From the sequence record MT446408.1: a DNA stretch of 64,000 nucleotides, one strand, 5' to 3'. Shown piece after piece: positions 4,026-53,707 of the stretch (the first letter of the stretch is position 1; the number at the start of each line of letters is the position of its first letter). The notes beneath the pieces were generated by a model. It saw only the letters and a list, made by a program, of their open reading frames with translations, was not told where the DNA came from and searched no databases. Both the position numbers and the translations under genes were made by a program. This stretch comes from Escherichia virus TH35.

Positions 4026-4472
4026 ATGAAACGCATCACTGGAATCGCGCTTGCCGCAACTGCTATTCTCGGAACCATGTATATGGAAGCGACTGAAGCC
4101 GCTGTCCGTACTTCCGATTCAATCGCTGTTTACGATTGCGAAGCGATGGACGGCAAGACCGCAGCGACGACTGGCGCAACAATTACCACTTACATCGGTG
4201 TGAACGAGCAAGAAGGTCTGAATATTCAGATTCAGGGATTCACCGGAAAAGGTGCCAACCGGACTCCGTGGATGCAGCGTTTCACTTTCGTTCAGCCTCG
4301 TTCAACTGGCGGCTTTATCAACCTGATTGGTGAAAACCGTTCTGGTGCAGAAATCTTTACATCAATTAGTTCTAATAATGAACCAAAGAAAAGTTTTCAG
4401 TTGCTTTATAACGCACAATTCGTTTATCATTGCACCTTCTCTGGTGATCAGCAACTAGTTAACTACCGTTAA
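4026..4472 (+). CDS. secreted/periplasmic protein of unknown function
   Basis: N-terminal signal peptide MKRITGIALAATAILG...ATEAA; AAGAGGA RBS 7 nt upstream of ATG 4026 (track start 4020). Confidence 0.6.
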   Translation: MKRITGIALAATAILGTMYMEATEAAVRTSDSIAVYDCEAMDGKTAATTGATITTYIGVNEQEGLNIQIQGFTGKGANRTPWMQRFTFVQPRSTGGFINLIGENRSGAEIFTSISSNNEPKKSFQLLYNAQFVYHCTFSGDQQLVNYR

Positions 4473-14026: not shown

Positions 14027-14887
14027 ATGTCTAAGAAAGAAACTACCGAAGTTGCAGTGAAAAACACCCAGATGTCCGCTATGGCTGATTTTGTCGACAT
14101 GACCGATTTTGGCGCTGGTTTTGAAGGTGCCGATGCCGATGCGTATGCCATTCCTTTTATCGTCGTACTGCAGAAGATGTCTCCTATGGTCGACGAAGAT
14201 GATCCAAAACACGTTCCTGGCGCAAAAGCTGGCATGCTTTACAACACCGTTACTGGTGAGTTGTATGACGGCAAGAAAGGCGTGCAGATCATCCCTTGCG
14301 CATTCAAACGCACCTTCATCCTTTGGGGCGGTCGCGAGTCCGACGATAAAGGCTTTAAAGGTGAATTCACCAAAGAGCACGTTGATGCAGAAGTAGCGGC
14401 AGGCCGCGCTGTTGAGATCAACGGTAAAGTGTTTGTGCCGGACGAAAACGGCAAAGTGCACGAGAAGAAATCGCCTTACTACGCAGATACACGTAACCAC
14501 TTCGTAATTCTGTTGAACGAAGAAACTGGTGAATTTGGTAGCGCAATGTTGTCTTTGACTTCTTCGATGATCAAGCCGTCTCGCATGCTGATGACCGCGC
14601 TGCAGCAGAAGAAAGTTCAGACTCCGCAAGGTCTGAAAACGCCGCCGACCTTTATGAACATCGTTCGCATGGGTACTGCATCCCAGTCCAAAGACGGGAA
14701 CACCTGGTCTGTTCTGAAGTTTGAGTTGGAAGGTCTGGTGCAGGACAAAGGTCTGTATGAAGTCGCCAAAGCATTCCACAACGATGTAGTTGGCGGCAAC
14801 GTTAACATTGACCGCAGCAAGCAGGAAGAAGCAAGCGGTGCCGCTGGCCCTGTTAATGAAACTCCGACCGACGCAGAAGAGTTTTAA
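14027..14887 (+). CDS. hypothetical protein; possible ssDNA-binding/annealing protein
   Basis: 286 aa ending in acidic tail ...ETPTDAEEF (terminal Phe) reminiscent of phage SSB C-termini; function inferred only. Confidence 0.45.
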   Translation: MSKKETTEVAVKNTQMSAMADFVDMTDFGAGFEGADADAYAIPFIVVLQKMSPMVDEDDPKHVPGAKAGMLYNTVTGELYDGKKGVQIIPCAFKRTFILWGGRESDDKGFKGEFTKEHVDAEVAAGRAVEINGKVFVPDENGKVHEKKSPYYADTRNHFVILLNEETGEFGSAMLSLTSSMIKPSRMLMTALQQKKVQTPQGLKTPPTFMNIVRMGTASQSKDGNTWSVLKFELEGLVQDKGLYEVAKAFHNDVVGGNVNIDRSKQEEASGAAGPVNETPTDAEEF

Positions 14888-14905
14888 TCGACAATCAAAT
14901 CAACA

Positions 14906-14930
14906 AGGCTGCCGATTGGCGGCCTTTTAT
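14906..14930 (+). terminator. rho-independent terminator
   Basis: AGGCTGCC-gatt-GGCGGCCT stem (one G-U pair) followed by TTTT. Confidence 0.5.
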
Positions 14931-14944
14931 TTATCTGGTGCATC

Positions 14945-15463
14945 ATGATAGAAAGAATTGTACCACTCCTGAAGATTATGGCCCTTGTTGGCGCGTTTGC
15001 CGCTGGATCATACGTTGAAGACCTGCAGCAAACCAACGCATCACTGGCCAAGGATAACCAATATCTGACATCGCTTAATGAGCGTAAGGACAAGATAAAT
15101 GCACTCGAAGAGCAAATTGCATCTTTACAGGTTGAATCGGCATCGGCATATGAGAAAGGTCGCCAGGAAGCGCAACTGGTTGCTGATGACACTATTGCTC
15201 GTTACAAGTCTGGGAATATCAAGTTGCGCGAGCAACTCAGCTGCTCCCGTGAGTTACTCAGGAGTGTGCCCGACTCTGCGACCACTGGACGCCTCTCTAT
15301 CCCAGAAGGAAACTGTGGACTATCAGAAGAAGATGTCAGATTTCTTGTTCAGTTCGCCGCAGAAACAAACCGATTAAAAGATAAAGTTAATAGCTTGATT
15401 GATACTTATAATCAGGCTAAAATAAAAATCGATCAATTCAATGCATCAAAGGAAAATAAATGA
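14945..15463 (+). CDS. i-spanin (Rz-like)
   Basis: N-terminal TMD IVPLLKIMALVGAFAAGSYV, periplasmic coiled coil, conserved Cys; carries embedded +1-frame lipoprotein ORF. Confidence 0.6.
   Translation: MIERIVPLLKIMALVGAFAAGSYVEDLQQTNASLAKDNQYLTSLNERKDKINALEEQIASLQVESASAYEKGRQEAQLVADDTIARYKSGNIKLREQLSCSRELLRSVPDSATTGRLSIPEGNCGLSEEDVRFLVQFAAETNRLKDKVNSLIDTYNQAKIKIDQFNASKENK
15150..15377 (+). CDS. o-spanin (Rz1-like) lipoprotein, embedded in i-spanin gene
   Basis: ATG 15150; signal MRKVARKRNWLLMTLLLVTSLGISS-C with lipobox ISSC; short Pro-containing mature part; wholly inside 14945-15463 in another frame. Confidence 0.55.
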   Translation: MRKVARKRNWLLMTLLLVTSLGISSCASNSAAPVSYSGVCPTLRPLDASLSQKETVDYQKKMSDFLFSSPQKQTD

Positions 15464-16053
15464 AACAGATTTATGCAAACATTCGCCAGTGGGCTTCTGA
15501 CCGTAACATCATCCAAGGTTGCGACCTTAAGGACCAATACCCGAAGCTTATCAGCGAGTTTGGGGAGTTAACCGACCACGTTGATCAACTCCATGACCTT
15601 GTGTTCTTTGACCATGAAATTGAATATACAGAGCAGGCCATCTGTGACCTGCAGGCCGCAATCAAGGACGACATTGGTGATTGTCTTGTTGTATTGACTA
15701 TCCTTGCCGCGCAAAATGGTGCAAAAATCGAAGACATCAACGGCGGCGGTTGCGCTGACAAAGGTGCCCACCCTCACTCGTTTATCCTTCGCTTGGCAAA
15801 GACTCTCGGACGGCTTGGTGACGCCATTGCTAAAAATCAGAGCATGGATATTGATGTCACCATCATGGTCGCAGTCGATTACCTTTCCGGCGTAGCTCAT
15901 GATTATGGCCTTCGCTTATCCGACTGTGCGCAAGCGGCCTACGAAGACATCAAGGACCGCAAAGGTGTCATGTACAACGGCACGTTTATCAAATCGACTG
16001 ATCAGGCTTACGCCTATGCGCTGGAACAAGTAATGAATGAGGGGAAAGAGTGA
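15460..16053 (+). CDS. MazG-like nucleotide pyrophosphohydrolase (putative)
   Basis: all-alpha NTP-PPase-like motifs KLISEFGELTDHV and DIGDCLVVLTILA. Confidence 0.5.
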   Translation: MKQIYANIRQWASDRNIIQGCDLKDQYPKLISEFGELTDHVDQLHDLVFFDHEIEYTEQAICDLQAAIKDDIGDCLVVLTILAAQNGAKIEDINGGGCADKGAHPHSFILRLAKTLGRLGDAIAKNQSMDIDVTIMVAVDYLSGVAHDYGLRLSDCAQAAYEDIKDRKGVMYNGTFIKSTDQAYAYALEQVMNEGKE

Positions 16054-17027
16054 TGGCAGGAGAGATCAAAGCGCTTAAGCCAATGAAAGGCTGTCAACGT
16101 AAGCAAATCATCGAACGCGGTGAAGACGTTCCGTTACCTTGCGGATTGTCATTTAAGGTTGATGGCATACGTGCTATGGCTTATGACAAGCTTCCTATGG
16201 GTACGTCTGGAATGCCGCTGCGAAACGTTCAAATCAAGAAAGAGTTCCTTTTCTTGGGCGATTTGATTTACGGCCTTGATGGTGAACTCATCGACGGCAA
16301 TCCTAATGACAAGAACGTCATGCAGCAGGCATATACTGCGTGCATGAATACTGATGCAATAACTAACTTTACATGGTGGGTGTTTGATGACTTCAGCGAC
16401 CCCGATTTACCTTTTGAAAAGCGTTATGCGAACTATCGGGCTAGAGTTGCTGAGGTCAATCAGTATCTCTTGGACCATGGCCACAGACCATTCCTTCGCG
16501 CCCTTGAATACCGAAACATTGAGAATATGGATCAATACGCGGCAATGCAAGTCGAAGCGGACCAGCTTGGATATGAAGGCTTATACGGCAAATCGTGGAC
16601 GGGCAAATACAAGCATGGTCGCGCAACGCCGAAGTCGCGTGATGTATGGAAAGACAAGCCGTGGACCGACGAAGAAGGACAGATCATAGATTTCGTCGAG
16701 ATGATGGAGAATAACAACGAAGCGTTCATTGATGAGCTTGGTCGCACAAAACGATCAAAGGAAGCTGAAGGACTCGTTGCCAAGGGTTATCTCGGATCAT
16801 TTGTCGTAGTCAATCCAAAGTATGTAGATGAGAAGGGTGAGATGATTCCTTTCCGTGTGTCCGCAGGTTCAATGCCTATGGCAGAGCGGAAGATGCTTTG
16901 GGATAATCGCGAAAATTATCGCCACAAATACTTGACGTATAAATTCTTTAACTTTGGCATCGTTGACGTGCCGCGCTCTGCGCTTTATAAATGCTTCCGT
17001 GATATTACCGATATGGAGTATTTTTAA
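16050..17027 (+). CDS. ATP-dependent DNA ligase
   Basis: motif I KVDGIR (adenylation Lys), motif III GLDGEL, motif IV EGLYGK, motif V K-x-K. Confidence 0.85.
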   Translation: MMAGEIKALKPMKGCQRKQIIERGEDVPLPCGLSFKVDGIRAMAYDKLPMGTSGMPLRNVQIKKEFLFLGDLIYGLDGELIDGNPNDKNVMQQAYTACMNTDAITNFTWWVFDDFSDPDLPFEKRYANYRARVAEVNQYLLDHGHRPFLRALEYRNIENMDQYAAMQVEADQLGYEGLYGKSWTGKYKHGRATPKSRDVWKDKPWTDEEGQIIDFVEMMENNNEAFIDELGRTKRSKEAEGLVAKGYLGSFVVVNPKYVDEKGEMIPFRVSAGSMPMAERKMLWDNRENYRHKYLTYKFFNFGIVDVPRSALYKCFRDITDMEYF

Positions 17028-17100
17028 CACACTGGATAAATAATTGTTGCGTATAATCTATCGCGCCGTTTTATAGAATTTAATATACAGTGTATACATA

Positions 17101-17131
17101 AAGCCGGAAATTTCCGGCTTTTCTTTTATTT
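17101..17131 (+). terminator. rho-independent terminator
   Basis: AGCCGGAAA/TTTCCGGCT perfect hairpin followed by T-rich run. Confidence 0.65.
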
Positions 17132-17202
17132 ACTTTCGGCGTATTTACTTTCAAAACCTTAAGCCTATACTATTAATATTCATAATCAAAAGGTGAATTA
17201 TA

Positions 17203-17745
17203 ATGAAAGCGAACAAATTAAAGATTGTTTTGATCATCATCATGGCTATGCTGACAGTTATATTCTTCACCAAGACTGCATCGGCTGAAAATATGTTCAC
17301 GCCGCCGAATGGAAGTGCAAAAGTTTTGACAAGATATTTCAACAATGGGCAGTCATTTGAGTTTTGCTGGAATAAATACGACGTAATAAAAGAAAGATTT
17401 GACAAAGAAAAGATGTGCGTAATGAATGATCGCGGTCGGCAGGTCGTGTCGTTTGTGTTCGGAATGTCGATGGCAAAAGTTGATGCCCCTGAAATCGTTG
17501 TCAGGTATAATACATTGGACAGCGGCCTTGTCGACAAGACATACCCTGTTGCAGTAGACAGCAGGACAGGCGGCGCACTAATACTCACTCCAGAAGATAA
17601 ATCAGATGTCGTTAACATGCTCATCAACAGCAAAGACGTAATCGTGTTTTATCACATTGAAGGCGTATCAGACTACCAAATGGCCTACTATCCACTGCCC
17701 TTGAGAGATGCTTCAGGTAATGTTAAGACACAGGAAGTGCGTTGA
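17203..17745 (+). CDS. secreted/periplasmic protein of unknown function
   Basis: signal peptide MKANKLKIVLIIIMAMLTVIFFTKTASA; own transcription unit between two terminators. Confidence 0.55.
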   Translation: MKANKLKIVLIIIMAMLTVIFFTKTASAENMFTPPNGSAKVLTRYFNNGQSFEFCWNKYDVIKERFDKEKMCVMNDRGRQVVSFVFGMSMAKVDAPEIVVRYNTLDSGLVDKTYPVAVDSRTGGALILTPEDKSDVVNMLINSKDVIVFYHIEGVSDYQMAYYPLPLRDASGNVKTQEVR

Positions 17746-17759
17746 CATGGGTGGTAGTT

Positions 17760-17972
17760 ATGCAGAAAGATTTGGAAGAAAACAAAAGGCTGAAAAAGGC
17801 TTTGACGTCTCAAATCTTGTCCCTGTTGGTAAAGCTTATTGGGGAGTCAATTAGCAACAAGGTGGCACGGGCCGCGATTGTAGGTGTGATTGGTATGGCG
17901 GGGTATTACTTCGACTTGCCAGACATTGATACAAGTTCCGCTCCGCCCGTCCAAGTTGAAGCCGTAAAATAA
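17760..17972 (+). CDS. small single-TMD membrane protein (holin candidate)
   Basis: ATG 17760 (track start 17742 is TTG); hydrophobic segment ARAAIVGVIGMAGYYF; convergent with endolysin. Confidence 0.4.
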   Translation: MQKDLEENKRLKKALTSQILSLLVKLIGESISNKVARAAIVGVIGMAGYYFDLPDIDTSSAPPVQVEAVK

Positions 17973-17974
17973 AC

Positions 17975-17996
17975 AAAGGCCCATATGGGCCTTTTT
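17975..17996. terminator. bidirectional rho-independent terminator between convergent genes
   Basis: AGGCCCA-tat-TGGGCCT hairpin flanked by A-run and T-run. Confidence 0.65.
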
Positions 17997-17997
17997 C

Positions 17998-18642
17998 TTA
18001 CATGACTGCTAGTGCATCCTTGTAACGCTTTCTTCGCAACTCACCGTGGTTCGCTGCGTTCGGCGCGGCCCCATTAATCCGCTTAACGGTTGAATCAAAA
18101 TTCCCTGCATCCGCAAGAGGAATACAACCACTATTCTTAAAGAACCATGCCGCGCTGTCGGCAATGTATTTTGGTTCAGTCAGAATATCAGGATTGTTCA
18201 ATGCATCATAGCCTGATTGACGCGTATATTCAGCATAGTTCGCTTTGCCAGTCAGCTGAATGGCACCACGGCCACGGTACTTCCAACCGTCGCCAGATGC
18301 TACCGAACCGTTGCCCATGCGGTTTGCGTATGTATTATTGGCGATTTCCATAGGTTTACGTGCAATCGACAGGGCCAATGAGTTCGGGGCGCTTCCAGCA
18401 CGACCGTTGACGCTGTAACGACTAGGCCATGTATTGGCAAGGCCCTGTGCAGAGTAGTTGAGATTTTCCACAAAGGTCTTCAAGCCGCCCGTCTCTACTC
18501 CTACGTTTGCAAGGAATGCTGCAATGGCATTCTTGCTTTTTATTCCGTAGTGCTCACAAGCCTGCTTGAAAGGATCCACCCAATTTTCTGCAACATCCGT
18601 GCTGCATCCTGTCCCTTTAGATATTACGTTTGCATTAATCAT
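17998..18642 (-). CDS. endolysin, glycoside hydrolase family 19 (chitinase-like)
   Basis: AAFLANVGVETGG and KYRGRGAIQLTGKANY match GH19 catalytic-region motifs; AAGGTG RBS. Confidence 0.8.
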   Translation of the reverse strand: MINANVISKGTGCSTDVAENWVDPFKQACEHYGIKSKNAIAAFLANVGVETGGLKTFVENLNYSAQGLANTWPSRYSVNGRAGSAPNSLALSIARKPMEIANNTYANRMGNGSVASGDGWKYRGRGAIQLTGKANYAEYTRQSGYDALNNPDILTEPKYIADSAAWFFKNSGCIPLADAGNFDSTVKRINGAAPNAANHGELRRKRYKDALAVM

Positions 18643-46994: not shown

Positions 46995-47210
46995 ATGAAA
47001 CTCATCGACCGTGCCATCAAAGCCATTGATAACCACTCCACCGCGCTTGCTTTCGTGATGGGATTTTGTTTCACTGCTGCGTTTGGCGACGTTCACACAT
47101 TCAAGTCTGTCATCTTGTGCTGGTCCATCTGGTCCCTTATTTCTCTGGTTTTGATTCTTCCGATGACGTGGCTTGTTCTTACTTGTCTTGAATCTCAAGG
47201 TGAAGACTGA
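46995..47210 (+). CDS. small two-TMD membrane protein (holin candidate)
   Basis: hydrophobic segments ALAFVMGFCFTAAFG and VILCWSIWSLISLVLILPMTWLVLT; GGAGG RBS. Confidence 0.4.
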   Translation: MKLIDRAIKAIDNHSTALAFVMGFCFTAAFGDVHTFKSVILCWSIWSLISLVLILPMTWLVLTCLESQGED

Positions 47211-47431
47211 TGAGACTATCAATCAAAGAGCGGGCAAAGCGACCCAAAAGGAGTGAGCCAAAGGCCAAATACATATGCGTTGGCGGACCGTTCGACGGTC
47301 AAGCGATGTGGCTTTCAAAATCTAATCCATCGACGGTTGAGTTCAGCCTTCATGGAATGCGCGGCAGGTATCTGCTAAACAGAGAAACAAGCGGCAGCAC
47401 ATTTGTGGAGTGGAAAGAAAATGGCAAGTGA
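47210..47431 (+). CDS. hypothetical protein (73 aa)
   Basis: ORF coupled (TGATG) to upstream membrane protein gene. Confidence 0.4.
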   Translation: MRLSIKERAKRPKRSEPKAKYICVGGPFDGQAMWLSKSNPSTVEFSLHGMRGRYLLNRETSGSTFVEWKENGK

Positions 47432-47654
47432 ATTATCAATCGAAGTACCGAAAGAATGGCTGGATAAGGCATACGCAGATTCTGTAAAAGAACTTGCTGT
47501 TGTGCTTGGAATCGAAAATGAGTTTAACGTTCAACTTCAATTCCTAAAAGATACTCTTCAAATCAAAGAGAATAGAGAAGCTGGCGGCGGTGCGCCTTTG
47601 GCTCTGGCAATAATCTATGCGGGATTAATTTTGAAGTCTGGAGGCGAACTGTGA
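47421..47654 (+). CDS. hypothetical protein (77 aa)
   Basis: start at ATG 47421 (MASELSIEV...); short overlap with upstream gene. Confidence 0.4.
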   Translation: MASELSIEVPKEWLDKAYADSVKELAVVLGIENEFNVQLQFLKDTLQIKENREAGGGAPLALAIIYAGLILKSGGEL

Positions 47655-47850
47655 ATCGTTGGTGCAGTTGGAAGTTGAAACGTCTCGCCTGGGCCAATGC
47701 CGCCAATTCTGCTGGCCCAATCACCGCTGGTGTTGGGTCGATATGGGACGGCGAAGGACGTTGGGACTCTCTGTGTGGCACGCGCCTATTCTTTCGCTTA
47801 AAATAACATTCGCCCTTCCCGATATGGGAAGGGAATTTAAAGAGGTTATC

Positions 47851-48192
47851 ATGAACAATACTTTATCACAACTGCTAATCTGGACAATTGCTGCTATCAT
47901 CGGCACCGTTATTATGATGTCGAGTGCAAAGGCCGATACGGATATTTGCGGCAGACTTATTTCTGAGAATGGCGAGATTTATTATGGCAACTCAAAAGGC
48001 GATTATATATCGCCTGAGGTTTGCGCTCAGAAGAAAGCAGAAATGCAAAAGCAGTATCATGAAGATCAATCTATATCTCAAGCCGCGCTGATTGAATTAA
48101 GTATATCAGCCATCATCTTTCTAATCGTTTTTATGCTCATTATTAAACCAGATAATGGCAGCCACCGTCATATTCCTCTCAAAAGAAATTAA
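47851..48192 (+). CDS. membrane protein with N-terminal signal/anchor and C-terminal TMD
   Basis: start at ATG 47851 after AGAGG RBS (track ORF begins 47659); LLIWTIAAIIGTVIMM and SISAIIFLIVFMLII. Confidence 0.45.
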   Translation: MNNTLSQLLIWTIAAIIGTVIMMSSAKADTDICGRLISENGEIYYGNSKGDYISPEVCAQKKAEMQKQYHEDQSISQAALIELSISAIIFLIVFMLIIKPDNGSHRHIPLKRN

Positions 48193-50573: not shown

Positions 50574-50654
50574 TTCACTCAAGGCGCTGAAAAGCGCCTT
50601 TACTTTATGCGCAATTAAGTTATACTCATTATACGTTAACAAGTGAGGTGATTT

Positions 50655-53625: not shown

Positions 53626-53679
53626 GAAAAAAGATAAAATAATTTATCTCATTTTTATCGAAAAAGTGCTTTACTTTTT

Positions 53680-53707
53680 TCTACACTATATTATAATGTA
53701 CTCATAT
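53680..53707 (+). promoter_or_regulatory. sigma70-like promoter for 53767-54051
   Basis: TTTACT (53680-53685) - 16 bp - TATAAT (53702-53707); shares CTTTACTT...TACAC core with the two reverse promoters. Confidence 0.55.

What the first reader, a model, noticed from the sequence alone, without database searches (positions are those of the whole stretch)
17101..17998. Self-contained secreted-protein plus membrane-protein cassette between two terminators
A strong terminator (17101-17131) follows the ligase gene; then come a signal-peptide protein (17203-17745) and a small single-TMD protein (17760-17972), ending at a bidirectional terminator shared with the convergent endolysin gene. The pair could be a holin/antiholin-type lysis control unit, or a periplasmic superinfection-exclusion or receptor-masking function. 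A second secreted protein (4026-4472) elsewhere suggests several envelope-targeted accessory proteins.
Basis: inference. Interest (0 to 1): 0.45.

Follow-up and report, generated by a model that had tools for sequence, protein, structure and literature searches.

The report
Phage secreted-protein plus LRP-type small-protein cassette
A virulent E. coli phage (Wifcevirus) carries a separately transcribed two-gene unit next to its cell-wall-degrading enzyme: an exported periplasmic protein of unknown function and a small conserved protein whose counterpart in a Pantoea phage mildly damages membranes; it is a real, conserved accessory unit, but not a recognisable holin/antiholin pair.

Summary
The window is a Wifcevirus, about 93% identical in DNA to phages TH32, Ro157lw and Mansfield. 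The anatomy holds. It runs: terminator (17100-17131), conserved sigma70-type promoter (17144-17171), gene A (17203-17745), gene B (17760-17972), then a bidirectional terminator (17975-17994) shared with the convergent GH19 endolysin.

Gene B is not a clear single-TMD protein. It has two helices, and the uncharged run is only 14 residues. It is a core gene of the Wifcevirus/Kylevirus/Myosmarvirus/Pbunavirus group and always sits convergent with the endolysin.

Its Pbunavirus homologue, 14-1 gp48, is an experimentally mapped monocistronic transcript. Its Pantoea phage orthologue, PA1-LRP (54% identity), is mildly toxic and raises membrane permeability. It boosts killing when fused to the endolysin.

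My best reading is an autonomous, envelope-directed accessory unit. B would be a membrane-active lysis helper, and A a periplasmic add-on found only in phages of enterobacteria. A canonical holin/antiholin pair is not supported, and superinfection exclusion is not excluded. Interest is moderate.

The parts
17100..17131 (+). Intrinsic terminator that ends the spanin-MazG-ligase unit
   Evidence: 9-bp stem, 4-nt loop and T-tract. RNA fold -13.6 kcal/mol, z -5.3, 0 of 200 shuffles as good. Invariant in divergent relatives L011 and L012. Annotated as a terminator in Mansfield and WFH.
17144..17171 (+). Sigma70-type promoter of the cassette (TTTACT-N16-TATACT). The element TATTTACTTTC is duplicated at 17127 and 17142.
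   Evidence: Found by the promoter scan. The -35 and -10 blocks stay conserved in L011 and L012 while the spacer diverges. It is one of only 5 matches to TTTAC-N16-19-TATAMT in 64 kb, where 0.19 are expected. With the TTGAC variants there are 7. Activity was not measured.
17190..17195 (+). Shine-Dalgarno sequence (AAGGTG) of gene A
   Evidence: Read from the sequence. An RBS is annotated at the same place in Mansfield.
17203..17745 (+). Gene A: exported periplasmic protein of 180 aa. Signal peptide is codons 1-28 (17203-17286). The mature protein is about 152 aa, 17.3 kDa, pI 5.4.
17750..17754 (+). Shine-Dalgarno sequence (GGTGG) of gene B
   Evidence: Read from the sequence. An RBS is annotated in Mansfield. 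In relative L011 the stop codon of A overlaps the start codon of B.
17760..17972 (+). Gene B: 70-aa protein of the PA1-LRP family (PHROG 5165). It has a basic N-terminus, helix 1 (residues 2-30), helix 2 (34-50, Gly/Ala-rich and weakly hydrophobic) and an acidic, Pro-rich disordered tail.
   Evidence: PHROG 5165, E 1.9e-8. 54% identity to PA1-LRP, E 2e-13. 42% identity to Kyle gp58 and 38% to Pbunavirus homologues. AF2 secondary structure. dN/dS 0. Invariant residues L15, L23, G28, E29, R37, G42.
17975..17994 (.). Bidirectional intrinsic terminator shared by gene B and the convergent endolysin gene
   Evidence: 8-bp stem with 5 GC pairs and T-runs on both strands. Folds at -13.2 and -13.7 kcal/mol on the two strands, z -3.8 and -3.4. 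Annotated on both strands in Mansfield and 14-1.
17998..18642 (-). Context: GH19-type endolysin with no signal peptide or SAR domain, last gene of the late tail operon
   Evidence: Pfam PF00182, E 2.5e-8. PHROG 181 'endolysin', E 4.6e-70. No hydrophobic segment.
14945..15463 (+). Context: i-spanin with embedded o-spanin (15099-15377), in the upstream unit on the same strand
   Evidence: PHROG 1327 'Rz-like spanin', E 2e-26. Annotated as i- and o-spanin in Mansfield and Bas99.

Best explanation
The region is an autonomous two-gene transcription unit with its own sigma70-type promoter, insulated by terminators on both sides. It delivers two small accessory proteins to the cell envelope.

Gene B is the ancestral, conserved component. 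It is a two-helix protein of 70-84 aa. I infer that its Gly/Ala/Ser-rich second helix associates with the cytoplasmic membrane, with the basic N-terminus facing the cytoplasm and the acidic tail facing outward or lying at the interface. There it would destabilise the membrane and help the soluble GH19 endolysin reach the wall. That makes it a holin-like helper rather than a canonical timed holin.

Gene A is exported through Sec, cleaved after ASA, and probably disulfide-bonded. It folds into an IalB-like beta-sandwich in the periplasm. It was added only in the lineages that infect Enterobacterales. I infer that it modulates B (for example through B's short outward tail) or an enterobacterial envelope component.

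Shown here: the gene structure, the terminators, promoter conservation, signal-peptide features, purifying selection, synteny, and orthology to PA1-LRP and to 14-1 gp48.

Taken from the literature on orthologues: the monocistronic transcript, mild toxicity, membrane permeabilisation, and endolysin enhancement when fused.

Inferred only: B's topology, any A-B interaction, the timing of expression, and the actual role in lysis.
For: - Architecture.
- The same layout (ligase | terminator | A | B | terminator | convergent endolysin) is found in 28 Wifcevirus genomes, Kyle, PA1, MTx and metagenomic relatives L011 and L012.
- B occurs alone, in the same position, in about 290 Pbunavirus records and in L009 and L013.
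- 14-1 gp48, the B homologue, is transcription unit TU021, a single gene flanked by a mapped start and stop (PMC10914365).
- PA1-LRP is the B orthologue. Expressed alone, it cut OD by 13-20%, released beta-galactosidase and gave 24.7% dead cells.
- Fusing the endolysin to LRP, or to helix 2 alone ('HPP'), gave about 40% cell death (PMC11538084).
- The endolysin has no export signal and no holin is annotated in any Wifcevirus. The MTx authors could not find one either.
- In L011 the GH19 endolysin is replaced by a lambda-R-type enzyme while A-B stays. So B does not depend on one particular enzyme, which fits a membrane-level role.
- Signal peptide and Cys pair of A.
- In L011 the stop codon of A overlaps the start codon of B.
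Against: - The PA1 data are weak. They use translational fusions, 24-h endpoints, and no test in trans with the endolysin. Toxicity is mild, unlike a real holin, and a two-hybrid test of LRP against the endolysin was negative.
- B has only 14 uncharged residues in helix 2, and TMHMM sees no TMD in the orthologue.
- B's tail is acidic, not basic.
- The unit is convergent with the endolysin, not co-transcribed with it. Its promoter is of the host-RNAP class that also fronts clusters of small hypothetical genes, which I take to be early genes from their position only. That would be odd timing for a lysis effector.
- Membrane proteins with much more hydrophobic segments exist elsewhere: window 46995-47210 and 47851-48192, and Pbunavirus E217 gp11, whose counterpart some records call 'holin'. 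Any of these could be the real holin.
- Nothing tests an A-B interaction. The tail motif GYYF[DE]..[VI]D[TM] that tracks the presence of A is confounded by phylogeny.
Confidence: 0.4

Rival explanations
1. Superinfection exclusion or envelope remodelling, working like T4 Imm plus Sp or P1 Sim. The unit is transcribed by host RNA polymerase from the start of infection. A in the periplasm and B at the inner membrane then block genome entry or the tail lysozyme of later-arriving phages, or alter an enterobacterial surface or stress component.
For: - An independent promoter-terminator unit resembles a moron. Putzeys et al. flagged 14-1 gp48 in those terms.
- The promoter belongs to the same near-consensus sigma70 class as the promoters in front of the small-gene clusters.
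- A periplasmic protein next to a small membrane-associated protein resembles the T4 sp/imm gene pair (my own knowledge of T4).
- A is found only in phages of Enterobacterales, which suggests a host-specific envelope target.
- Several other exported or membrane accessory proteins exist in the genome.
Against: - There is no sequence or profile similarity to Imm, Sp, Sim, Cor, Llp or any PHROG exclusion family, and none to PADLOC families.
- The fold of A is not that of Spackle, which is helical (my own knowledge).
- B is strictly tied to the endolysin locus across very distant genera, and exclusion does not explain that.
- B's orthologue damages membranes rather than protecting cells.
Confidence: 0.22
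2. The two genes are functionally unrelated neighbours. B is a soluble cytoplasmic helical-hairpin protein, a small regulator or host-takeover factor that binds a conserved host or phage protein. A is an independent periplasmic accessory protein inserted into the same unit.
For: - B has no convincing TMD. It has a strongly basic N-terminus and invariant charged residues E29 and R37. It is predicted as two helices with low pTM.
- B functions without A in Pbunavirus.
- A different, unrelated 94-aa gene occupies the A slot in L009, and MTx has an extra gene there. The slot therefore behaves as an insertion hotspot.
- Cells expressing the endolysin-LRP fusion became filamentous, which hints at an intracellular target.
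Against: - Helix 2 alone, fused to the endolysin, was enough to cause leakage and death, which points to membrane activity.
- Low hydrophobic moment combined with fairly high mean hydrophobicity in helix 2 is not typical of a soluble surface helix.
- A and B are tightly linked, 14 nt apart here and overlapping in L011.
Confidence: 0.2
3. A canonical holin/antiholin pair. B is the holin that forms lethal holes for the endolysin. A is a periplasmic antiholin that delays triggering, like T4 RI acting on T.
For: - The unit is adjacent to the endolysin.
- No other holin is annotated in these phages.
- The endolysin needs a holin because it has no signal or SAR sequence.
- B's orthologue is toxic and permeabilising.
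- A is periplasmic, like RI.
Against: - B fails the TMD criterion and the basic C-terminal tail criterion.
- LRP toxicity is mild and slow, whereas holins kill abruptly.
- A has a very hydrophobic h-region and a conserved A-x-A site, so it looks cleaved and released, not SAR-anchored.
- Pbunaviruses have B without A.
- The unit is convergent with the endolysin and separately transcribed.
- There is no similarity to any holin or antiholin PHROG or Pfam family.
Confidence: 0.1

Closest known systems
PA1-LRP ('lysis-related protein') of Pantoea phage PA1 (Kylevirus), PMC11538084; PHROG 5165
   Same: B is its orthologue: 54% identity over 50 aa, E 2e-13. Size, two-helix layout and hydrophobic region at about residues 37-52 are the same. 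The position is the same, convergent with a GH19 endolysin. PA1 also has an A orthologue immediately upstream (34% identity, E 2e-40).
   Different: The C-terminal tails differ. Nothing has been tested for the Wifcevirus protein. The PA1 study never looked at the upstream secreted protein, and it used fusions rather than expression in trans.
Pseudomonas phage 14-1 gp48 / E217 gp49 (Pbunavirus), transcription unit TU021 in PMC10914365
   Same: Homologous small protein (about 38% identity; PHROG 5165 E 2e-55 for E217 gp49). It occupies the same slot between ligase and endolysin and is flanked by terminators. It was shown experimentally to be a monocistronic unit.
   Different: There is no gene A. 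About 280 bp of non-coding DNA lies in its place. The tail is longer and charged, and helix 2 is even less hydrophobic.
Canonical phage holins (lambda S, T4 T, phage 21 S68)
   Same: Small size, location next to an endolysin that lacks an export signal, and a toxic/permeabilising orthologue.
   Different: B has no clear TMD and an acidic rather than basic C-terminus. It has its own host-type promoter and is convergent with the endolysin. The toxicity of its orthologue is mild. It matches no holin family.
T4 RI antiholin and the T4 Sp/Imm exclusion pair
   Same: A periplasmic protein is encoded with, or next to, a small membrane-associated protein, and is probably expressed independently of the late operon.
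   Different: There is no sequence similarity. A carries a signal peptide that looks cleavable rather than a SAR anchor, and its domain is beta-rich (my recollection is that Spackle is helical). A target and an effect are unknown.
IalB (invasion-associated locus B; PDB 3dtd, Pfam PF06776) and the MotY N-terminal domain
   Different: There is no sequence-profile match to PF06776. The model is only of moderate confidence (pLDDT 72.6, from 5 sequences). The molecular function of IalB is itself unknown, so the resemblance gives no mechanism.

Membership tests
PA1-LRP family / PHROG 5165 | Sequence homology to PA1-LRP and to the PHROG 5165 profile | tested here: met
   BLASTP gives 54% identity, E 2e-13, to PA1-LRP translated from PP537389. 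PHROG 5165 E 1.9e-8. E217 gp49 matches the same PHROG at 2e-55.
PA1-LRP family / PHROG 5165 | Gene sits tail-to-tail with the endolysin, downstream of the ligase | tested here: met
   The same synteny is seen in the window, Mansfield, WFH, Bas99, Kyle, PA1, MTx, E217, 14-1, L009 and L011-L013.
PA1-LRP family / PHROG 5165 | Two alpha-helices with a hydrophobic region at about residues 40-60 and no TMHMM-predicted TMD | tested here: met
   AF2 gives helices 2-30 and 34-50. Hydrophobic run A38-F51. The TMHMM statement comes from the paper.
Canonical holin | At least one bona fide transmembrane domain | tested here: inconclusive
   KD19 maximum 1.34 (below 1.6). Hessa sum +4.05 kcal/mol over 17 residues. 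14 uncharged residues. This is less hydrophobic than the i-spanin TMD in the same window. No dedicated predictor was available.
Canonical holin | Highly charged, usually basic, cytoplasmic C-terminal tail | tested here: not met
   The C-terminal 20 residues have pI 4.05, net charge -3, and are Pro-rich. The basic residues are at the N-terminus.
Canonical holin | Part of a lysis cassette co-transcribed with the endolysin (late) | tested here: not met
   Opposite strand, own promoter and terminators. Monocistronic in 14-1.
Canonical holin | Abrupt lethality, release of endolysin in trans, triggering by energy poisons | not testable with these tools
   Only the PA1 orthologue data exist: mild toxicity and fusion constructs.
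Sec/SPase I-exported protein (gene A) | Positively charged n-region, hydrophobic h-region of 7-15 residues, and a c-region with small residues at -3 and -1 | tested here: met
   MKANKLK (+3) / IVLIIIMAMLTVIFF / TKTASA|EN. The same layout is present in nine orthologues whose signal-peptide sequences differ. SignalP was not run.
Sec/SPase I-exported protein (gene A) | Absence of a lipobox (so not a lipoprotein) and of further TMDs | tested here: met
   No Cys near the cleavage site. There is only one hydrophobic segment.
IalB family (PF06776) | Match to the Pfam profile | tested here: not met
   No Pfam family at E<=1 or E<=10 for the orthologues.
IalB family (PF06776) | IalB-like beta-sandwich fold | tested here: inconclusive
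T4 RI-type antiholin | N-terminal SAR (weakly hydrophobic, releasable) anchor and homology to RI | tested here: not met
   The h-region is strongly hydrophobic (KD10 3.5) and has a conserved A-x-A site. No hit to any characterised PHROG or Pfam family, RI included.
Superinfection-exclusion proteins (Imm, Sp, Sim, Cor, Llp) | Homology to a known exclusion family | tested here: not met
   No match to a characterised PHROG family and no Pfam, NCBIfam or PADLOC match for A or B.
Superinfection-exclusion proteins (Imm, Sp, Sim, Cor, Llp) | Expression protects the cell against the same or other phages | not testable with these tools
   Needs plating and adsorption assays.
Moron-like autonomous transcription unit | Own promoter and terminator, insulated from the flanking operons | tested here: met
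   In silico for the window. Experimental transcription start and stop for the 14-1 homologue. GC content is only slightly lower: A 42%, B 46%, window 46%.

The most novel reading that the evidence does not exclude
B-family proteins (PHROG 5165) would be the missing holin-equivalent of the whole Pbunavirus/Wifcevirus/Kylevirus/Myosmarvirus group. This would be a new class of lysis effector. It would open the cytoplasmic membrane with a short helix carrying a stripe of small residues rather than a canonical TMD, and it would be expressed from its own host-type promoter. In the enterobacterial lineages, the secreted IalB-like protein A would be its periplasmic regulator, making a new kind of antiholin or lysis-timing sensor. 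[quoted passage not shown]
Probability: 0.12. Interest if true: 0.75.

Novelty: new member of a known kind. Interest (0 to 1): 0.38.

Why it matters
Pbunaviruses are among the Pseudomonas phages most used in therapy, and Wifceviruses are reported to lyse unusually fast. Yet no holin has been established experimentally for either group. Gene B is the only small conserved gene locked to the endolysin locus in more than 300 genomes, and it has one weak experimental link to membrane damage. A clean genetic test is now possible in the K-12-compatible BASEL isolates Bas98-101. It would either identify an unconventional lysis effector or remove it from consideration. Gene A is a very narrow, orphan periplasmic family, with about six clusters among 1.8 billion representative proteins. 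It is specific to phages of Enterobacterales, so its target may be an envelope component specific to those hosts. On present evidence, however, this is a conserved pair of hypothetical genes with a plausible but unproven role.

Tried and rejected
1. Family searches for A and B in Pfam, NCBIfam and PADLOC gave nothing, even at E<=10 for Pfam. In PHROGs, B matched only PHROG 5165 ('unknown function').

2. Two word-indexed searches of 5.8 billion proteins and one full HMMER search of 1.84 billion representatives returned only close phage relatives. The single outlier, P0011, is a repeat protein and a spurious match.

3. A profile search of PDB sequences with the B alignment gave only chance hits at E>0.5.

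4. The afdb50 fold library was unavailable.

5. An Rfam scan of 16900-18100 gave only sub-threshold hits driven by the terminator hairpin. No RNA element is proposed.

6. The idea that A and the other secreted protein (4026-4472) are paralogues was rejected (BLASTP E 0.78).

7. The idea that the cassette is compositionally foreign was rejected. GC is 42-46% against 46% for the window, and only the spacer is AT-rich.

8. The antisense ORF 17151-17633 (160 aa) was rejected as a gene. It mirrors gene A, which is under purifying selection on the plus strand.

9. A possible promoter (TATAAT at 17052-17057) upstream of the first terminator is not conserved in L011 or L012 and was dropped.

I do not rely on them. 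Only the in-window controls are used.

11. The supplementary tables of PMC10914365, which would give the promoter class and timing of TU021, are not held.
Full report
**Identity of the window**

The 3-kb stretch around the finding is 92-94% identical to Escherichia phages TH32, Ro157lw, Mansfield, WFH and ECML-117, and 88-89% identical to FEC19, WFC and the BASEL isolates Bas98-101. All of these are Wifcevirus myoviruses. Weak DNA matches in the ligase gene lead to Serratia phages of genus Myosmarvirus (MTx). Protein-level matches lead to Pantoea phages Kyle and PA1 (Kylevirus) and to Pseudomonas Pbunavirus.

**Checking the observation**

The gene order on the plus strand is as follows:

- a Pam3-gp34-like gene (14027-14887)
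- a terminator (14905-14926)
- the i-spanin (14945-15463) with an embedded o-spanin (15099-15377)
- MazG (15460-16053)
- the ATP-dependent ligase (16050-17027)
- a terminator (17100-17121 plus T-tract)
- gene A (17203-17745)
- gene B (17760-17972)
- a hairpin at 17975-17994 with T-runs on both strands
- on the minus strand, the GH19 endolysin (17998-18642), the last gene of the tail-fibre operon

The two terminators bounding the cassette are among the three strongest terminator-like sites in 5.5 kb. They fold far better than shuffled sequence (z -5.3 and -3.8).

Both ORFs are genuine genes. Against Bas99, dN/dS is 0.10 for A and 0 for B, with dS of 0.36 and 0.14.

**A promoter inside the cassette**

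Between the first terminator and gene A lies TTTACT-N16-TATACT (17144-17171). I aligned this spacer with two metagenomic relatives whose A proteins are only about 62% identical. The terminator stem, the TATTTACTT block and the TATA(C/A)T block stay invariant while the rest diverges.

The pattern TTTAC-N16-19-TATAMT occurs five times in the window, where 0.19 are expected. With the TTGAC variants there are seven such sites. They sit in front of gene clusters. Four of them (50599 and the three at 53.2-53.7 kb) front clusters of small hypothetical genes. I infer that the cassette is read by host RNA polymerase without phage factors, either early or throughout infection. This was not measured.

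In Pbunavirus 14-1, the homologue of B (gp48, located) was mapped by ONT-cappable-seq as TU021. That is a single gene flanked by a transcription start and stop, and the authors flagged it as moron-like (PMC10914365). The 'self-contained unit' is therefore experimentally backed in a distant relative.

**Gene A**

The N-terminus reads MKANKLK / IVLIIIMAMLTVIFF / TKTASA|EN. Nine orthologues keep three features although the signal-peptide sequence itself is barely conserved:

- a positive n-region
- a hydrophobic core
- an A-x-A-type site at the same distance before the conserved FxPPN motif

The orthologues are from Bas99, L011, L012, Kyle, PA1, MTx, P0008 and P0010. The sites are ASA, AAA, ARA, ARA, AVA, FAA, ADA, ASA and FSA. 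A pair of cysteines is kept in all of them (17 residues apart in eight, 19 in MTx). This fits a periplasmic disulfide.

The mature protein is about 152 aa, 17.3 kDa, with pI 5.4. An AlphaFold2 model built from a five-sequence alignment has pLDDT 72.6 and pTM 0.64. It shows the signal-peptide helix followed by a mostly beta domain with one helix.

No Pfam, NCBIfam or PADLOC family matches A, and only two uncharacterised PHROGs match weakly (E 0.011 and 0.063). A full HMMER profile search of 1.84 billion representative proteins found six hits, and one of those is spurious. A is therefore an orphan family confined to the members of this phage group that infect Enterobacterales. The molecular function of IalB is unknown, so the fold resemblance says 'periplasmic beta-sandwich' and little more.

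**Gene B**

Its features are these:

- The only hydrophobic stretch, A38-F51, has 14 uncharged residues between the invariant R37 and D52.
- Its Kyte-Doolittle 19-residue maximum is 1.34.
- The summed Hessa scale is +4.05 kcal/mol over 17 residues. For comparison, the A signal peptide gives -2.8, the i-spanin TMD +2.9, and two other small membrane proteins in the window -1.8 to -2.8.
- AlphaFold2 with ten sequences gives helix 2-30, a break, helix 34-50 and a disordered tail, at low confidence.
- The N-terminal half is basic (pI 9.7) and the tail is acidic and Pro-rich (pI 4.05).
- Helix 2 has a low hydrophobic moment and fairly high mean hydrophobicity.
- Helix 2 carries a conserved stripe of small residues: G42, [GSA]45 and [GS]48.

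That pattern suggests helix-helix packing at or in a membrane rather than a classical span.

**Distribution of B**

B is a core gene. It is present at 95% identity or more in 28 Wifcevirus genomes, at 42% in Kyle, 54% in PA1, about 30% in MTx, and about 38% in some 290 Pbunavirus records. It is always the last plus-strand gene, tail-to-tail with the endolysin. The wider protein databases add only a few metagenomic relatives.

A accompanies B only in Wifcevirus, Kylevirus, Myosmarvirus and relatives L011 and L012. Pbunavirus has about 280 bp of non-coding DNA instead. L009 and L013 have an unrelated 81-94-aa gene in that slot.

In L011 the GH19 endolysin has been replaced by a lambda-R-type enzyme, yet A-B remains. 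B therefore does not depend on one particular endolysin.

**Experimental evidence from an orthologue**

Pantoea phage PA1 'LRP' (PMC11538084) is the B orthologue. I located it in the unannotated PA1 genome. Its translation, MVRRRRR...KVEQQK, matches the published primers.

- Expressed alone in E. coli, it lowered OD by 13-20% over 6-24 h, released beta-galactosidase and gave 24.7% dead cells.
- Fused to the endolysin, it gave about 41-43% dead cells.
- Fusing only 'HPP' to the endolysin had a similar effect. By the primer sequences, HPP is helix 2.
- A two-hybrid test found no interaction between LRP and the endolysin.
- TMHMM found a hydrophobic region but no TMD.

These data point to membrane activity of helix 2. 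They are weak, because they rest on fusions and long endpoints and include no test in trans. The PA1 authors did not examine the upstream A orthologue.

**Is B the holin?**

The endolysin has no signal or SAR sequence, so some holin-like function is needed. None is annotated in any Wifcevirus. The MTx authors state that they could not find one. In PB1-like phages the 201-aa ORF upstream of MazG was once proposed as the holin. That ORF is in the position of the spanin here.

However, B fails two defining holin features, a clear TMD and a basic C-terminal tail. It is also separately transcribed, and its orthologue is only mildly toxic.

More hydrophobic candidates exist elsewhere:

- window 46995-47210 (71 aa, two TMDs)
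- window 47851-48192 (113 aa, an N-terminal signal or TMD, a C-terminal TMD and a basic tail)
- Pbunavirus E217 gp11 (145 aa, multi-spanning). Its counterpart in Pbunavirus JJ01 (ORF42) carries a PHASTER-derived 'holin' label taken from phage Epa13.

The two window candidates are conserved in all 28 Wifceviruses and found nowhere else. I therefore rate 'canonical holin/antiholin' at about 0.1.

**Most likely explanation**

I commit, at about 0.4, to the following. The cassette is an autonomous envelope-directed accessory unit. B is a membrane-active helper of lysis belonging to the LRP family. A is a Sec-exported periplasmic protein, added in the enterobacterial lineages, that modulates B or a host-specific envelope component.

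The rivals are:

- Superinfection exclusion or envelope remodelling working like T4 Imm/Sp (about 0.22). The host-type promoter and the moron-like layout favour it. The strict link to the endolysin locus and the lack of any homology count against it.
- Two unrelated neighbours, with B a soluble cytoplasmic factor (about 0.2).

One small observation bears on A-B coupling. All B proteins encoded next to an A gene share a tail motif, GYYF[DE]-x2-3-[VI]D[TM]. B proteins without A lack it. The two groups are also separate clades, so this is not independent evidence.

**Comparison with what is known, and novelty**

B is a new member of a family that has been described but is poorly understood (PA1-LRP, PHROG 5165, 14-1 gp48). 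The two-gene cassette is orthologous to the one in PA1. A is an uncharacterised orphan family with a tentative IalB-like fold. Nothing here is categorically new on present evidence.

The most novel reading that remains open is that the B family is an unconventional holin-equivalent for this whole phage group, with A as its periplasmic regulator. I put that at about 0.12.

**Limits**

- No dedicated signal-peptide or topology predictor was available, and no complex prediction.
- The afdb50 fold library was not available, and the supplementary tables of the 14-1 transcriptome paper are not held.
- Both structure models rest on shallow alignments.

Noticed in passing
window 46995-48192 (+): A cluster of five small plus-strand genes lies just upstream of the second tail-fibre gene. 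It includes two strongly hydrophobic proteins. One is 46995-47210 (71 aa, two TMDs). The other is 47851-48192 (113 aa, with an N-terminal signal or TMD, two Cys, a C-terminal TMD and a basic tail). Both are conserved in all 28 Wifcevirus genomes and absent elsewhere. They are better holin candidates by hydrophobicity than gene B, and none is annotated.
   Followed up: partly
window 217-190(-), 29307-29278(-), 50599-50626(+), 53227-53199(-), 53625-53598(-), 53670-53697(+): Together with the cassette promoter, these form a set of seven near-consensus sigma70-type promoters, TT[TG]ACT-N15-18-TATA[AC]T (about 1.3 expected by shuffling). The three at 53.2-53.7 kb are arranged divergently. Each is followed by a repeated leader of about 45 nt (ATATCGrGAsGGGATGAG..CGAATAGGTCG..) that contains a hairpin. 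This may be a repeated 5' leader or a small RNA.
   Followed up: partly
window 14905-17131 (+): The spanin genes (an i-spanin with an embedded o-spanin) are not next to the endolysin. They sit in a terminator-bounded unit together with MazG and the DNA ligase. The lysis genes of this phage are thus spread over at least three transcription units on both strands.
   Followed up: partly
L011:3803-4255 (-), metagenomic relative SRR26188688_3650: In this 72.5-kb relative the GH19 endolysin is replaced, at the same position, by a lambda-R-like lytic transglycosylase or lysozyme (150 aa). The neighbouring A-B cassette and the tail-fibre gene are kept. This is a clean example of endolysin module swapping.
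   Followed up: no
P0003 (148 aa, from a 32.7-kb contig): This variant of protein A is 94% identical over the first ~120 residues and then runs out of frame to an early stop. It is either an assembly error or a natural frameshift. A real frameshift would mean A is dispensable.
   Followed up: no
window 17127-17152 (+): The 11-mer TATTTACTTTC occurs twice, 15 nt apart, directly after the terminator T-tract. The second copy supplies the -35 element. These are the only two matches in the window at up to one mismatch, though two such matches occurred in half of the shuffles. Both copies are conserved in relatives. This could be a tandem -35 element or a binding site.
   Followed up: partly
It has a weaker signal-peptide-like N-terminus, no family match in Pfam, PHROGs, NCBIfam or PADLOC, and no similarity to protein A.
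   Followed up: partly
L009:4506-4790 and L013:2-247: In relatives that lack gene A, the slot between ligase and gene B holds a different conserved small gene (81-94 aa, ...YLNIAWYWWLVAVGLV...). Serratia phage MTx has an extra 77-aa gene there. The slot behaves as a hotspot for accessory-gene exchange.
   Followed up: no
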